Source of the DNA: Microbotryum violaceum
Taxonomy: Eukaryota
Assembly (NCBI GenBank): GCA_001244265.2
Contig: CDLV01000005.1
Coordinates: 2,666,001 to 2,730,000 of the forward strand
Direction: 5' to 3'
Length of the DNA: 64,000 nucleotides
Below are positions 49,555 to 61,884 of this stretch, in pieces. The translations under genes and the position numbers were made by a program. The notes below the pieces were generated by a model, which was given only the letters and a program-made list of their open reading frames with translations, made no database searches and was not told the DNA's origin. Numbering within the stretch: the stretch's first letter is position 1; every line of letters starts with the position of its first letter.

Positions 49555-52001
49555 ATGCCCATCTCCCATCGCGGGCATCTCACGCGACCTGCGCCGCGTG
49601 GATTTTCTGCTCGCTCCCTTCCCTCGCCCGCACCCCTTCCGAACATCAACTTTGGGGCAGGTGCTAGCATGTTTCAACGCCGCAAGTCGTTCCAATCTGG
49701 GCCCTCGGCTTCCTCCTCGGCGCCCACGGGATCGACAAGCTCAGGAGCGAGCACTGTCCCAGGACCGCCCAAGAAGTTGGTTCAAGTGCTCACGACGCGC
49801 AAGACGGTGCTCGTGCCTTCGACACTCACCTCGACGAACCGACCCACCGTCAAGGCTGTGAATGGTAGTCCGTCTTCATCCAAAGTAGGCGTCAAGACGG
49901 CGGGTTCGTCGCTCAAGCACAGGGCCTCGAACGGTGCCTCAACTGTGGCCACGACGACGACATCGAGCAGCAGCAACAGCAGCAGCAGCAAAGCCAAGAA
50001 CTACAACTCGTCAGCCGGACCATCCTCATCGAGCGACAAGTCAGCAAGAGCAACCACGTCTGCTTCCAGCTCCAAGAAGCTCAACGGTGGCAGTGCGCAA
50101 TCGGCATCTCCAATCAAAAGGAGGGCCGGCGTCGAGGCCGTCGTTTCGGCCGAGGCAAACAAGCGCATCAAATCCGCATCCACTTCCCCGGCCCGATCTC
50201 AGGCCGCAAACAGAACCAAAACGAGGGCTACATCCTCAGCTCTCGCTCGGTCCTCCTCGGACGTCGATTCGTCCTCTTCTGCCGCGTCACTCAGCGAGGA
50301 GGAGGACGATTCGGACTCGTCAGATTTGGGGACGCCCAGAAATCGACGCCAGTCGACCCCGGTCGTAGAGCGAGACGTATATGATGGATCGGAAACGCCA
50401 ACAGAGGCGGATAAAGAGGGCACCTCGAAGAGGATCGATGCGTCCAAATTAATTATGCTTAGTCGGAGCGCTTACAGAGATTGTACGTTCTCCCTCGACC
50501 TTTGAAGAGCCTCGCTCACTTGGCTCACCTTCTCTTATCATTGAACGGCATGACAGATTTTATCGATCCTATTGATCCAGAAAAGTCGAATGTACAATGG
50601 TCGGGGAACGATATACCCACAATCGATTTAGAATACCCGGGAAACGGTAGCGAAAAGTCGGTCAGAGTTGCGCGCGCTACAACTAAGCAACAATAACACA
50701 GGAACTTACAAGACCGGATTATCTTCTGCACAGATTTTATCTGCTGGCACCCAAAAATGACAACGAATACGATCCCATCGAGGACGTCATGTCCGTCATT
50801 CGGACCGTCTTGGACGTGTTCCTAACGCCGCCCCAATCCCTCGGCCTTTTCGGCTACACCCCCGGTCTCAATTCGTTCTCAGCTTTCCTTTCGGCGCCTC
50901 CTTCTCGCTCAGTGACACCCGGAACACCCACCGATACGGGCACACCGTCTGCTGCTACATTTCCCACCTCGACCTTACCTCCCTTAATGCGACAGCTTGA
51001 GAAAGCCAAAGCGAAACGGGATGGGCCCGCGTTCATTGCCGCGATCGAGCGCTACAACGCCGGGATCAAGGAGTTGAAGGCTAATTCAATCATGAAACAA
51101 AATATTCAGGGATTGAAGGGTCTCAAGGAGAAGACCTGGACTAAGATCGCGGCGCAATCGTATGATCGAGCTGTCGGGCCTGGGTTGGACGAATTGAGCA
51201 AGTACGAGGCCTTCTCCGATAACGTTTACGGCGAGCTGTTGCCTAAATTTATGAGCGAAATGTAGGTCGGATGCGCATGCCTGCGGCTGTACTCTGAACT
51301 GATTGGTGATTCTATGATTGTGCAGCTTTCAAAAGACCAAACTCGGCCCCGGATCCGTCTTTGTCGACCTCGGTTCCGGCGTTGGCAACTGCGTTGTCCA
51401 AGCCGCTCTCGCAACTGGCTGCGAATCTTGGGGCTTCGAGAACATGGCACATGCGTCATCGCTCGCTCGGGCTCAAGTGGTCGAAGCTGAAACGAGGCAC
51501 AAGTTGTGGGGCGTTAGCGCGGGCAAGATGGAAGTTATCGAGGCCGATTTCTGTGAACATCCCTTGGTAGGCCAGGTTCTCAAAAGGGCTGACGTGATCC
51601 TCGTCAATAACGAAGTGTGAGCTTTACATCACGAAAATCTTTCTGCTTGGGCGTGCTGTTCCAGACTGACACGCTCGGCCCACTTGTACAGATTCTCCTC
51701 ACTCTTGAACCAGCGCCTCTCCCTTCTCTTCCTCGACCTAGCCTCCGGCACCCGCATCATATCTCTCAAAGCCTTCGCCCACTCATTCAATCTCTCAGCC
51801 CACAACCGACATTCCCCTCTAGCGATTCTTGACCAAGGACAACCTTTGACGTACGGGCGACAGAGCGTGAGTTGGAAAGAGGAAGGAGGCAAATACTTTA
51901 TTGGGCGAATCGATCGGGAGAAAGTGGCTAGGTTTGACGAGAAGGAGCGGAGGAGGAGGGAGAAGAGGGAGAAGGCGGAGACATTGAGGCACTCATCTTA
52001 G
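49555..52001 (+). CDS. DOT1: Histone H3K79 methyltransferase (start may be 49669)
   Basis: LEYPG..E|FYLLAPKNDNEYDPIED; YDRAVGP..LSKYEAFSDNVYGELLP; VFVDLGSGVGNCVVQAALATGCESWGFE; ADVILVNN; FLDL..GTRIISLK; SVSW. Confidence 0.95.
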
Positions 52002-52444: not shown

Positions 52445-55400
52445 TTACGCTACCCCGAAGAAGCGTGGCGAGTTCTCTACGAGCAACTCGATCATCTTGG
52501 CCTTGGCGCCCATGTCAGACCATTCCCTTTCGACGACTCGAGAACGCATGACCGTCGGCCCAAAGACGACGCCCAGATTGACAGGTGTCATCTTGTTCTC
52601 GGCGCTGCGCGAGTGCACCCGATGCAAGTGTTGGATCAGGCACCTCGCGGTCTTGTAGTGGACTTCGGGCATCTTGGCCAACGTCGCTTCAATCTTGGTC
52701 AATCGATCCTCGGGCGAGGGAATCTCGGTGCACGAGACGAATTCTTCGTGCAAGTCAAAGGTGAAGAGCGGGTCGGGCAAGCATCGGAAGTAGTTCTTGA
52801 GGCAGGAGGTGATGGCGGCCGGGTCGTTGAACTGGTTCCCGTCCTCGAGGTTGAAGTCTTGACCACTCTCGAACAATTGCGTAATGCGCTTCGTTTGCCC
52901 CATTCCACCCGACTTGCGGTAGATGCCTTCTTGGTACATACCAAAAACTTCGACGGCTGCGATGCATTTCGAGACGACCAAAGGAACCTCGCGATTCTCG
53001 GATCGTGCTTGCGCGGTCTAGATGAGGAAAACGGACACAAGAGTCCAGTCAGCTTCATGTTAGGTCAATTCGGTCCATCAAATAACTTACAAGATGATTG
53101 CCAAACATCCCCGAAAACTGCGACAGAAGCGTCATCGTGTCATCCGAAGCGAGAGCGGTGGAACCGTGTGAGCACGGCGTTAACAGGTAGGGGATGCACT
53201 TGGTGTGTGAGTAGCAACCACATCCAGTACATCGTACTTCGTTCAGCCCCCACATCTTGTCGCCACAGTATTCGCATCGGATGGGCCGCAGGATACTCGT
53301 CGGCTGGAATGCGTGTGAGCGAATGCCATGATCGATCGAGACCGAAGCCGAACGAGAATTTTGCGGTGATCGACTCGACCCAGCGGCGGCAGCGCCCGAG
53401 CCCATGTTGAGACCCATGACCGATCCCTTGCGATCGTGCGGGTCGCTGCTACCGGCTTGGAGTTGAGGACTACTGATCGATGCGGTCGTGACGGCTTTGG
53501 CCTTGCCCCATTTGAATTTCTTGACTATTGGGGCTTCCAAGCGCGCAACCGACTCGAGATCGCCAATGCTCGGAGACATGGATGGTCGAGGCAGGGCCAT
53601 CTTGCCCATGCTCGAGATACTGGCTGATGCATGGTGACCACTGGGGCCAGGGCTGGGGGACACGCGCAGCTTGCTCATCTGATCTCGGAGCGATTCGAGG
53701 AGCTTCGAGGCCTCGACTGTCTGCCCTTCGAGAGAAACGTGGCGAGCCTGCAGAGTCGCCGACTCGTCGATGAGGAACGATCGAGCGTCCTGCAGTGCGT
53801 CGACTTCCCGCGTCAACGCATCGCGCTGCTCGACCAAGGCCGTGATCTCAGCACGGTGTCGATCCTTGACCTCTTCCAATCGCTCGTTGAGGGCTTCGAC
53901 GATCCGATCGTTGGCAGTCTTCGTAGGAGATTCGGTTCCCTTCAACTCAGCCGCCTGGGCCGTTGAAAGCTCGACCTCGGCTCGCAAGGTCGAAAGTTGT
54001 CGTTCCGTAGCCACCACAGAGGACCGTAATTCCTGCGTCTGACTGCGCAAGCTCTCCCGCGTCTTCTGGTCTTGATCGACGTCGGCCAGCCGACGTGCCT
54101 GCTCGACAAACCTGGTTCGAAGTTCCTCGAGGCGGGATTCGACCTCGCGTCGAGTAGCGACCTCGCGATCGTATTCTTCGCGCGCCATGCTAAACCCTTC
54201 GAAAGCCGTTTTCGACGCTCTCTGCGATCCAAAAACATAATGCGGGTTCATCAGGTCTTGCCGCCTCAACACTGGTGACGGACTGCACTCACTCTGAATG
54301 CATCATACCGCGACTGCCATTCCTGCATCTCTTTTTTGGTCTCTTCCAATTCATTCAGAAGCATCTCGACGAGCTCGACATCGAGCGACGCGCCGCCAGT
54401 CTTGCCCTCCATCCCATCTCTCGACAACCGGATCGATTCCCTCACTTTGCGCGCGACGCTTCGCCCACCCGCGGTCGCGACGTCGCGAGAACTGTCAAAT
54501 TCGGCCCCTGCTAGATCAGGACTGAGGTGCTCGATCGCGTCCGAGGCTGTCGAGGCTTCCGAAGGTCCACGTCGTTGTGAATGCGTCTTCCCCTCGTCCA
54601 GCGATTTCCGTGGAGGTGTGGGACCATGACTCAACGAGTTCGATGCTGAATGATTGCGAGGCGAGGCGACGTGGTTGAGGAAGAGGAGGGTATCGGGGTC
54701 GTAGAAGGACATCGAGTTATGCAGGTCGGGTAAATAAGTCGAGCTCGGTGGATGCGCTGCGGCTGGAGGCTCATGCTGTGGAGCCGAGTATGGCAGCGCC
54801 TCTGTCGGATCTTCATTAACGTTATTCTCCTTGGCGGGAGATCGATCATCGTCCTCAACGGGCTCTTCCTCGTTCCCAATACGTTCGTACGCGACGTCCA
54901 AGTCATCGGTCGCGACCGGTGCAGCATCATCAATCGAGGGTCGCTGGGCGAAGCCATAGAACCCAGAGCGTCGGTTCATCTGCTTCTGCTCGGCGTTGAT
55001 GGGCTGCAGGGTGCTCGACTCAGATTCGCGTCGCACCATGTACGCCGAAAAGGTTGGACTGGCGCCACCGGCATCATCGCTGGCCCCGACCGAGATCGCA
55101 GGGGACCGTTCTTGTGGCGGAATGGGGAGAGATGGCCGTGGAGGACGGTCTTTTGTGTCTGAGCTCAAGCGACCTCCCAGGGACGAGATGGCCGTTGTCG
55201 TGGCGGACGTTGGCAAAGGTGTATGCTGGGGCCTCCAATGCAGCGTTTGTGGTGACGAGTTGGGGCGCGACGTATCGTGGGAGTGGTATTGCTGTGTCGA
55301 AAATTCCTTGTCCTTGGGCGAAGGGGAGGTGTCGTAGCTACCTTGTTCGTAATCACCGCTTTTTCGAAGGGCAAAGTTCGACGACGAAGATGCCGACTTG

Positions 55401-56733
55401 GCATGCCCTCCTGAGCCAGAGCCGGAGGAGGTAGGGACCTGACTACCATTGATGGCTGCAATCGCCACCGCATGGGCGCGCTCACTGCGATCTTTGTCGC
55501 GTTCGGCTTTAGTCCGCCCAGCTTCCTTCTCCTTCTTCCTCCCCGCTCGGGCGGCCTTTTTGGCTTCTGTCTTTTTCCGCCCTTGCGCGATGCGCTCGTT
55601 GTGACAGGCCATACACCAGATGCCCAGTTGAGTCTTTGCATAGGTCAGTCCCTCGATGCGTTCGGCGCAATGACAGCATCGAAAGCATTCGGTGTGATAG
55701 CTATGTTCACCTGGGTATGATGAGGGAGGAAATTGGCCGATTAAAGGGAAGACACTGAATGCTAGTAAACAGCTTTGCAATTGCGTACCTGTGACGACCG
55801 CCGAGTTGTCAATCGACTTGTGACAGGTGCTACAGATGTAGGAGCAGTTTTGGCATACGGGCAGGCCGTCCGAGAGCAAGAGGAGGTTCGTGTCGTGTTC
55901 GACAAGGTTGTTGCATTTTGCGCATCGGCTGGATGAGCAGCCGTTTGAATAGACTCGTTAGCATAGCGTTGCTTGGAAGATGCGGCGGAAGAGTGGGGTG
56001 GGACTCACAAGCTGCGCGTGTGGGGAACGAGCGGGGGAGGCAGGGAGCGAGGAGCGCACTGCGGGTCAGCAAAGGCTATCACAGAGGCGTGCGCAGCCAA
56101 GCCGAGACTCACCAGTCGACGCTGCACGTTGGAGAAGGGTGTCCATAGTGGGGTCAGCGGATCCGCAACGTCAAGGGAGCCCAGATACAAAGGCTGCAGC
56201 CCCTGTCGGGAGGAGGCAACGTCCGACGACGACGCGCGTTGAGGACTGACTGGTAGAGATATTTGCCACAGGTCACGACGGTGGAGTCGAGCGTTTGTTC
56301 GAGACCCAACTTGCAAGCTATGATCATGATGGAAACCGTTACGGGTCAGATCGGATAAGCGATCGGCCACGAGAACGTGCATGATTGTGTCGCGAGGGAG
56401 CCGGTGGCTGCTGCTGACACCCGCGCGACCCGGGTGTATGCGATGCCTGCAAGTCGACTTACAGTTGCAACTCGTCTGACGGTCTGGAAGGAATGGACTG
56501 GTTGGTGAAGATGGGGTCCTGTCCGGGGCGAACGAGGTGTCGTACGACATGGACGACGTCGACGCGCCACCACCTCCGCCTCCACCGGCAGCACCACCAC
56601 TCGGCTCGTGCGACATCGACGAAGCACTCGCTCCACGATGGTGACCACCACCGAGTACAGGCGTCGATGTCTGGCTCGGCAGAGAAGGTGGAACCGGCAA
56701 CGGTCTCGAGTAGGCCGCTGCGGAGGTCGTCAT
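52445..56733 (-). CDS. Rho GTPase-activating protein with 2 N-terminal LIM domains, coiled coil, C1 domain and RhoGAP (Rga-like)
   Basis: LIM CNSCK..HVDCFRCAKC..CQNC; second LIM YHTECFRCCHC..WCMACH; C1 HAFQ..RCEYCGDKMWG..CTGC..HTKC; GAP EGIYRKSG, LKNYFRCLPDPL, NKMTPVNLGVVFGPT. Confidence 0.93.
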
Positions 56734-59814: not shown

Positions 59815-61884
59815 TTACTGTTGCTGCGGATATGCCTTTGCAACCGCATTCGCATCCGCCGCCATCGCCGATCGTAGTGCCTCCCTCGCCTTCTCTTGGC
59901 ATGTCGCCTTAAGCTTCATTTCCGCGCACAAACCGTCGACGTCGAACTCATACTTGGCCCCTGGTGTGATGAAAGGGCATTCTGATGTGGTTGGTCCCTC
60001 TGACAGTGATGTCTCCGCCGTCGGTAAGCTTGCCGACACGACCGGACTCGGGCTCTTGACGAATGCGGCCAAGAGGTCATCGGGGGTCGACGTTGTGCCT
60101 GGCGCCCCGGGCGCGGGGGAAAGGCCAGTCGAAAGACCCGAGGTGTTGAACAAGGCATCGAATTCGGTAAGTGATGTCAGATCCGTCGTGCCGAACGAAT
60201 CACGGTACGCCGTGAACAGATCAGTCGTTGACATGCCGGGAAGCGACGACATGCGCGTCGATGCTCCGGATGCTGAAGACGAGCCTGCAAGCGTCGAGGC
60301 GGGCGACGCACCCGACGACAGCGAGCCGAGGAAGATCTGCTCGTCCAAAGAAAGCTGTCGATTTGTGGCATCGTACGTCGGGGGCGAGAAGCCGAGCGGC
60401 GAGGCGGACGACGAACCAGACGGATGTTGGGGGTACGAGCTCTGCTGCGGCAAGGCGAACGCGGACGGGCTCGTGTTGAAGACAGGAGCCGAGGTTGGCA
60501 AGTTCGACGTAAGGAAGCCGTTCGCGTCGAAAGGGTTCGAGGTCTCTGACAGAGGTACACTTGAGGTCGACGCTGGGCTCGCGAAGGCCGATGTCCTCGT
60601 GAGGTCGTCTTGGTCGGTTGGGGGCGTAGGCGGCTTGAACTGGGGGGCGCTCGACATGGTCGCCGAGTTCGAGACGTCCTTTGCGTAGCTGAAAGAAAAG
60701 GCCGTCTCGTAGACCTTGAGGCGCTCATTCTCGTCCTGTAGCCTCTCCATGAGCTGCTTCAAGGCAGCGTTTTCGGCCGCTTTCGCGGACGATTCTTGCT
60801 CGAGGCTCAACACGCGATCTTCGAGATCTTTCAGGTGCTGTCCAACGAGCACGCCCAAGGGTCAGCACTTGTCCGATTGGACCCCTTGGTTGCGCTTGTC
60901 TCTCACCTTCTCCTTGCGCTCGCGGAACGCCCTCTGGGCCTTCCTGTTCTGATCCTTGCGCTTGTCGGTGGTCTTGTGCCCCTTGCCGCCCTTGCCGTCG
61001 TCTGCGTACGACATTGCCCATTAACAACACTGTCAGAAAAGAATGCACGGCTCAACTGACAGCAAGTCGCAGCAGACTGACCATCACTGTCGTTTTCGAT
61101 GTCCTCGTCGTCGGGGTGGGTGTGGTGCGACTCCTCTGCGCCACGGTTCGAAATAGTGCCCGAGCCTGTGGTCGAGGCACGACGATCCTTGAGGGCTGCG
61201 GTCGAGCTCTTGCTATCGGAGGCCTTGCGCTTCTCGTGCTGAGCCAGGGCCGTGGCGCGCGTCGGACTCATCTTGACGGGGGCCGCTGAGGCCTTGCTGG
61301 TCTCGAAGGAGGGAGCGCCCGTCGAGGATTGGCGCGACGAGGGCGCCGCATCCGATTCGGGCGAAGCCGACTCTGAGGCTTCGGGTGAGGAGAGCACGCC
61401 TAGGTTTTGGCCCGAGTAAGGCAAGTTGGGATTGAGCGAGAGCAATTTGGCGATGTCTTTGGTTTGATCAAAGCACAGGGAGCACAGGTCAGCACCGTAC
61501 AACAAAGAGAACTAGCCCACATGTGCGCTCATCGCTTTCACTCTTTGCCCCCCCTCCTGGGAAAGAAGCATCGCCGCCCCCGGCCCCCGCCTGCACGCTC
61601 CTGAATCCGCGGCGCGCGGAACTCGGGCATCGCCCTCTGCGCGCCAGCTGACCGGGCGCGGCGCAGTCGCGGCAGGCCGGGGTCGACGTGCACGAGGCCG
61701 TACGCGCTCGCACACGCACAGGCACGCCGAGTCAGGGCCCGGGAAAGAGGAAGGATGCGCTAGAGAAGAGGCATCGAAAGCGAAGCGCGACAGTGGAGGG
61801 TCGCGACGCACAGTTGTCCTGGTCATCGCCGAGGGGAAGGTTGCCCGCAGTGAGATTGAGGTTGGACCAATCGATCGTAGACAT
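59815..61884 (-). CDS. YAP1: Yap1/Pap1-like AP-1 bZIP transcription factor
   Basis: MSTIDWSNL..DN|YIAKLL..; KRKDQNRKAQRAFRERKEK|HLKDLEDRV (Yap-type basic region); C-terminal FDVDGLCAEMKLKATC. Confidence 0.85.

What the first reader, a model, noticed from the sequence alone, without database searches (positions are those of the whole stretch)
55920..56470. LIM domain assembled through consecutive 9-nt and 3-nt microexons
Seen on the minus strand: exon 56317-56251 ends ...CTC TAC CA|gtcagt. Then tgcag|CGTCGACTG|gtgagt (56121-56113), cgcag|CTT|gtgagt (56011-56009) and tccag|C CGA TGC. Joined they give Y-H-V-D-C-F-R-C-A-K-C, the conserved LIM HxxCFxC motif. Both microexons are multiples of 3, so skipping keeps the frame but removes a Zn ligand or the core Phe. 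Inference: a possible splice switch for RhoGAP localisation; automated annotation would probably miss both.
Basis: seen in the sequence. Interest (0 to 1): 0.7.

Follow-up and report, generated by a model that had tools for sequence, protein, structure and literature searches.

The report
Conserved tandem microexons in fungal RhoGAP
A fungal cell-polarity gene really does build one zinc-finger domain from two tiny exons of 9 and 3 bases, which relatives share and public gene models often get wrong, but they look like fixed parts of the gene rather than a switch.

Summary
Spliced contigs in 3 of 4 public runs laid here join exon 2 to exon 5 with exactly the 12 predicted letters. Only one canonical parse fits: 9 nt + 3 nt. 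The fourth run was unspliced. The gene is an Rga3-like LIM-LIM-C1-RhoGAP of a Microbotryum-type fungus (1203 aa).

The 3-nt exon recurs in 7 of 8 distinct metagenome orthologs. The 9-nt exon is separate in 4 of 7 and fused to exon 2 in the other 3, so it looks younger (DNA only). Annotation does fail here: 15 of 20 Microbotryomycete public models are broken at this motif.

The 'splice switch' has no support. No skip joint was listed, though contigs cannot exclude minor forms; every skip breaks LIM1; coding-exon skipping is rare in another basidiomycete. Best reading: constitutive microexons, with the flanking introns removed one after another. One lead: the branch point before the 3-nt exon lies unusually far upstream in 7 of 8 loci; a genome-wide motif test did not generalise this. 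Microexons are common in basidiomycetes, and the scan noted ultra-short exons in another fungus (e1-7522304). A real, modest new instance.

The parts
56463..56733 (-). Coding exon 1 (271 nt, from the ATG; ends within the first Cys pair of LIM1)
   Evidence: Contigs cover 56463-56783/56789; same start Met as public model P0001; the start codon itself is inferred
56251..56317 (-). Exon 2 (67 nt), ends two bases into the His113 codon
   Evidence: Joints 56317/56463 and 55928/56251 in X10, X11, X2
56122..56250 (-). Intron 2 (129 nt, GT..AG, branch motif 32 nt from the end); present in only some relatives; retention gives a stop at codon 145
   Evidence: unspliced contig 56123-56280 at depth 3.4 vs 162 in X10 only
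56113..56121 (-). 9-nt microexon: last base of His113, Val114, Asp115, first two bases of Cys116
   Evidence: Letters between the joint; unique parse; separate exon in 4 of 7 distinct orthologs
56012..56112 (-). Intron 3 (101 nt). Branch-type CTGAC at 56069-56065, its A 54 nt from the acceptor; a CAG ending at 56059 is passed over; 72% pyrimidine between
   Evidence: the branch point is inferred from motif only
56009..56011 (-). 3-nt microexon: last base of Cys116 and first two bases of Phe117
   Evidence: table 5c; present in 7 of 8 distinct orthologs
55929..56008 (-). Intron 4 (80 nt, GTGAGT..CAG, branch motif 29 nt from the end)
55789..55928 (-). Exon 5 (140 nt): second half of LIM1 and start of LIM2
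   Evidence: pieces
54293..55710 (-). Exon 6: rest of LIM2 and low-complexity middle region
   Evidence: Pfam LIM hit
53091..54221 (-). Exon 7: coiled-coil-like region (by eye) and C1 domain
   Evidence: Pfam C1_1 1.5e-06
52445..53017 (-). Exon 8: RhoGAP domain with Arg1047 in the arginine-finger motif, and stop
   Evidence: Pfam RhoGAP 1.1e-44

Best explanation
Two constitutively included coding microexons in the single Rga3/Rga4-type Cdc42-family GAP gene. They are by-products of three phase-2 introns packed into the His-x-x-Cys-Phe codons of LIM1. Shown: the main mRNA includes both, giving a canonical LIM1 (C89, C92, H113, C116, C119, C122, C142, C145). Inferred: the short flanking introns are recognised across the intron and removed one after another, so a 3-nt exon is never defined on its own. 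The distal branch point and pyrimidine-rich spacer of intron 3 may make room for the U2 and downstream U1 particles. Inferred history: the 3-nt exon is the older one; the intron in the His codon, which cuts off the 9-nt exon, was gained once in the lineage holding Microbotryum and the red yeasts, or lost elsewhere. The protein's job (turning off Cdc42 at polarity sites, with LIM and C1 domains for targeting) is inferred from yeast homologs.
For: Inclusion is the only spliced form listed in 3 of 3 spliced runs, including a 90-95%-alike relative. Unique parse. Exon positions recur in orthologs. HxxCF is intact in 53 of 69 public homologs, including 10 of 10 rusts and 38 of 38 rows P0032-P0069. 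All three skip forms lose the LIM1 pattern, and retaining any one flanking intron gives an early stop. Natural stand-ins: R. toruloides model P0014 (intact) has 2 Pfam LIM stretches at 47.9 bits; P0006 (lacks xxCF) has 1 at 32.2. Intron 3 branch distance: median 38.5 nt (n=8) vs 22 nt (26 other introns), and longer than intron 4 in 7 of 8 loci. Microexons occur in about 9% of Coprinopsis gene models, with 27 exons of 3 nt (PMC12230235, passages). Consecutive intron removal and a delayed upstream intron are described for plant microexons (PMC8831610, section 7).
Against: Contigs drop rare variants and the runs' conditions are unknown, so 'constitutive' is shown only as 'dominant in three runs'. 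13 of 69 public models have exactly the skip-3 (5) or skip-both (8) sequence; I read these as gene-finder errors but do not hold their DNA or RNA. P0013, which lacks only Phe, still scores 2 LIM stretches at 44.6 bits, so a skip-3 form is not obviously dead by profile score. The branch-distance pattern fails in L020, rests on related, non-independent loci and on motif-inferred branch points, and did not appear genome-wide (45 near/60 far for 1-6-nt exon patterns vs 50/64 for 20-25 nt, Fisher p=0.89). The clade holding all 9+3 loci has support 93/91, below the tool's star, and the window row is a long branch.
Confidence: 0.82

Rival explanations
1. Regulated splice switch: in some stage one or both microexons are skipped, giving an in-frame GAP with a broken LIM1 and changed localisation.
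For: Both exons are symmetric phase 2-2 and each starts with a pyrimidine, so all skip forms stay in frame. LIM domains matter for localisation of S. cerevisiae Rga1 (PMC5739294, passages) and S. pombe Rga3 (PMC6279383, passages). A fungal microexon switch is published for Trichoderma Xlr2 (PMC11121469, abstract and outline only). 13 of 69 public models carry skip-like sequences, and R. toruloides has both an intact and a skip-both cluster.
Against: No skip joint in 3 of 3 spliced runs. The flanking donors match the common GTGAGT type. [quoted passage not shown] The two public models I could map to the window (P0001, P0027) are plain mis-annotations. Coding-region skipping was 1% of events in Schizophyllum's transcript-level count, although the same paper's junction-level count lists 1,527 coding skip events.
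Confidence: 0.09
2. Regulation by retention or delay of an upstream intron: the microexon cluster slows splicing, and retained-intron transcripts are degraded, tuning GAP level.
For: In X10 the only intron with extra depth is intron 2 (contig 56123-56280, depth 3.4 vs 162; the other four intron-holding bins match exon-only depth). Retention gives an early stop. Upstream introns of plant microexons are often detained. Intron retention is the commonest event in Schizophyllum.
Against: Seen in 1 of 3 spliced runs at about 2% and under depth 5; it could be pre-mRNA or DNA.
Confidence: 0.07
3. The public gene model is right: larger exons 56202-56113 and 56058-56009 and a donor near 56276 are used, and there are no microexons.
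For: Public model P0001 reads these stretches as protein; the AGs exist.
Against: Contigs of three runs show only 12 letters in the gap and cover exon 2 to 56251. The model destroys LIM1 (1 Pfam stretch), and no other homolog of the 69 has that insert.
Confidence: 0.02

Closest known systems
S. pombe Rga3 / Rga4 and S. cerevisiae Rga1 / Rga2 Cdc42 GAPs (PMC6279383, PMC5739294; passages read)
   Same: Two N-terminal LIM domains, C1 domain, C-terminal RhoGAP; the paper states basidiomycete members keep the C1 domain, as here.
   Different: No microexons are mentioned in the passages read; GAP activity, target GTPase and localisation are untested for this protein.
Coding microexons of Coprinopsis cinerea (PMC12230235; passages read)
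   Same: Internal exons of 15 nt or less in about 9% of gene models, 89 models with an exon of 3 nt or less; missed exons break gene models.
   Different: Agaricomycete; the passages give no conservation across species, no tandem case in a LIM domain and no branch-point spacing.
Conserved, mis-annotated plant microexons (PMC8831610; passages and section 7 read), and the potato invertase 9-nt mini-exon
   Same: Conserved position inside a domain, mostly included, often missed, flanking introns removed consecutively. For invertase I saw only the titles of Simpson et al. 2000 and 2002 in a reference list; the distal branch point there is recalled.
   Different: Plant introns use U-rich or G-rich enhancers; here the spacer is C/T-rich and the introns are 65-130 nt.
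Trichoderma virens Xlr2 microexon switch (PMC11121469; abstract and outline only)
   Same: A fungal microexon affecting a zinc-binding domain.
   Different: There the inclusion is glucose-dependent and both isoforms were seen; here only the inclusion form was seen.

Membership tests
Rga3/Rga4/Rga1-type RhoGAP | Two N-terminal LIM domains | tested here: met
   LIM consensus pattern (recalled) matches at aa 89-145 and 149-199 of the spliced product; Pfam LIM hit on LIM2
Rga3/Rga4/Rga1-type RhoGAP | C-terminal RhoGAP domain with arginine finger | tested here: met
   PF00620 at 1.1e-44; Arg1047 in the G-x-Y-R motif (motif recalled)
Rga3/Rga4/Rga1-type RhoGAP | C1 domain before the GAP (Rga3 and basidiomycete type) | tested here: met
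   PF00130 at 1.5e-06, 28.4 bits vs cut-off 26.5
Rga3/Rga4/Rga1-type RhoGAP | Orthology to yeast Rga1/Rga3 by tree or reciprocal search | not tested
   No ascomycete sequence was fetched; assignment rests on architecture and PMC6279383
Rga3/Rga4/Rga1-type RhoGAP | GAP activity on Cdc42; LIM-dependent localisation | not testable with these tools
   Needs bench work
Coding microexon (15 nt or less) | Internal exon present in spliced RNA with canonical splice sites on both sides | tested here: met
Coding microexon (15 nt or less) | Conserved position in relatives | tested here: met
   3-nt in 7 of 8, 9-nt in 4 of 7 distinct loci, from DNA only; same 12 letters in RNA-type contig of relative X2
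Regulated (switch-like) microexon | Skip isoform exists at a measurable level | tested here: inconclusive
   None listed in 3 of 3 spliced runs, but contigs drop minor variants
Regulated (switch-like) microexon | Inclusion changes with condition or stage | not testable with these tools
   No raw reads or condition labels were available

The most novel reading that the evidence does not exclude
The conserved 3-nt exon, with its displaced branch point, is a tunable element. In a stage not sampled here (mating or infection filament) it is skipped, alone or with the 9-nt exon, giving an in-frame Cdc42 GAP whose first LIM finger is broken and which relocalises. This would be a class-wide one-codon splice switch for fungal polarity, and some of the 13 skip-like public models would be real isoforms.
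Probability: 0.09. Interest if true: 0.7.

Novelty: new member of a known kind. Interest (0 to 1): 0.33.

Why it matters
Practical: the first LIM domain of this polarity regulator is wrong in 15 of 20 Microbotryomycete public models examined, including the near-identical Microbotryum model, so domain-loss claims or constructs built on them would be wrong. Mechanistic: an RNA-supported 3-nt exon conserved across a fungal class, with a counterpart in the tractable yeast Rhodotorula, is a ready test case for how a spliceosome handles a one-codon exon and whether branch-point spacing matters. It is not a surprise that basidiomycetes have such exons.

Tried and rejected
Run search: no RNA holder was listed on record and all 11 runs were contigs, so skip frequency could not be counted; 4 of 11 were laid. 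X1 was unspliced and uninformative. Bare motif count for the 3-nt exon in the own genome: 55 matches vs 195 for the reversed control, so the motif alone is no evidence. Genome-wide test of 'distal branch point before tiny exons': no difference (p=0.89); these counts are mostly background and include repeats. Own-genome LIM search gave 8 matches; I did not examine the other LIM genes for microexons. PDB sequence search with P0014 gave 67 matches, led by chimaerin C1-RhoGAP chains, with only weak LIM hits; no fold was run. Literature searches with no hits: 'microexon + LIM domain + RhoGAP', 'Microbotryum + micro-exon', 'microexon + branch point + misannotation + constitutive'. 'microexon + Rhodotorula' gave 2 papers on other genes (listing only). 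The invertase paper PMC1369924 is not held. No supplements were read; the Coprinopsis microexon list could show whether its ortholog has these exons. No DNA of rusts, Mixia or Agaricomycotina was available, so the age of the 3-nt exon beyond Microbotryomycetes is open. L014 was dropped (does not cover the site); duplicates L012, L016 and L018 were counted once; 2 introns without a branch motif were dropped from the distance test.

Full report
1. Observation. On the minus strand the exons 56317-56251, 56121-56113 (9 nt), 56011-56009 (3 nt) and 55928 onward are bounded by GT donors and CAG/TAG acceptors, with branch-type motifs in every intron. Of 11 listed runs I laid 4. X10, X11 and X2 each gave one contig of about 3.9 kb spliced at all introns of the gene. 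In each, 55928 is joined to 56251 with the same 12 letters between, the reverse complement of the two microexons. X2 is a 90-95%-alike relative. X1 gave short unspliced pieces. In 2000 shuffles of the gap, the 3-nt pattern arose 22 times and the 9-nt pattern once.

2. The gene. Eight coding exons give an open 1203-aa product. It has two LIM patterns at aa 89-145 and 149-199, a C1 domain and a RhoGAP domain. This is the architecture of S. pombe Rga3, which PMC6279383 says basidiomycete members share (passages). The top homolog, P0001 (Microbotryum lychnidis-dioicae MVLG_00288), is identical at 1194 of 1203 aligned residues, so the window is that species or very close. The microexons supply the last base of His113, then Val, Asp, Cys116 and two bases of Phe117. 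His113 and Cys116 are zinc-ligand positions of the LIM consensus, and the aromatic after them is a core position (both recalled). All three flanking introns are phase 2.

3. Annotation. Of 69 public homologs, 53 have HxxCF intact, 5 lack only the Phe, 8 lack xxCF, none lacks only xxC, and 3 are garbled. The 16 defective models are 15 of the 20 Microbotryomycete rows plus Mixia. All 10 rust rows and all 38 rows P0032-P0069 are intact. Class was checked for three taxa; the rest is from names and my knowledge. P0001 uses the two microexon donors with wrong upstream acceptors and translates intron DNA, and P0027 is garbled too. For the other 14 I hold no DNA, so 'annotation error' is an inference.

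4. Conservation in DNA. The metagenome scan confirmed 12 loci out of 130 candidates. One does not cover the site and three are duplicates, leaving 8 distinct loci. The 3-nt exon (CTT or TTT between AG and GT) is present in 7 of 8 (shuffle rates 26-94 per 2000). L019 reads straight through the Phe codon, but its contig starts there. The 9-nt exon is separate in 4 of 7 (L010, L011, L015, L017; shuffle rates 0-1 per 2000) and fused to exon 2 in L009, L013 and L020. In a 29-row tree of the LIM region (window, 7 loci, 21 of the 69 proteins), all five 9+3 rows and all three xxCF-lacking models included fall in one 15-row clade (93/91, not starred). The 3-only loci lie outside it, unresolved among Pseudohyphozyma, Meredithblackwellia and Mixia. 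This fits one later intron gain in the His codon, or loss elsewhere; the window row is a long branch and I ran no clade test. The Mixia model reads on after the Cys codon and rejoins just before Arg, which hints at the same 3-nt exon (inference).

5. Mechanism. Most likely (0.82) both exons are constitutive and the 65-130-nt introns are removed one after another. No skip joint was listed. All three skip forms lose the LIM1 pattern, and single-intron retention gives stops at codons 145, 117 and 118. The loci are related, the branch points come from motifs, and a genome-wide pattern test showed nothing, so this is a lead only. It resembles the potato invertase mini-exon signals (recalled; only titles seen). 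In X10 alone, intron 2 has an unspliced contig at about 2% depth, in line with delayed upstream introns in plants (PMC8831610).

6. The switch. It is plausible in principle: LIM loss mislocalises Rga1 (PMC5739294) and reduces cortical Rga3, and a Trichoderma microexon switch is published. But nothing here shows a skip form, and coding skips were 1% of events in Schizophyllum's transcript-level count. Contigs cannot show minor isoforms, P0013 lacking Phe still scores two LIM stretches, and 13 public models match skip forms, so I leave it at 0.09.

7. Novelty. I found no paper on this gene's microexons (open-access library only). Verdict: new member of a known kind, well supported, interest 0.33.

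Noticed in passing
window 57300-56976 (-), run X2 record 15: A spliced contig of the relative joins 57210 to 57016 with 23 other letters between, upstream of the gene: possibly an alternative 5' UTR with its own small exon. Not seen in X10 or X11.
   Followed up: no
window 56123-56280: Unspliced contig over intron 2 at depth 3.4 in X10, the only intron of the gene with extra depth in that run.
   Followed up: partly
window 56733-55600 (LIM region): The window's LIM region sits on a long branch (0.67; best identity 73%) while relatives are nearly invariant; it has an extra Cys107 where relatives have Phe.
   Followed up: no
L019:1-340: Ortholog with a different intron set: no intron in the LIM1 Phe codon, but apparent extra introns in the Leu run of LIM1 and in LIM2; lineage unknown.
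   Followed up: partly
window 49528-52001 (+): Neighbouring ORFs with a methyltransferase-like motif resembling Dot1 (name recalled, not searched).
   Followed up: no
window 59815-61289 (-): ORFs resembling a Yap1/Pap1-type bZIP factor with a C-terminal Cys-rich end (name recalled, not searched).
   Followed up: no
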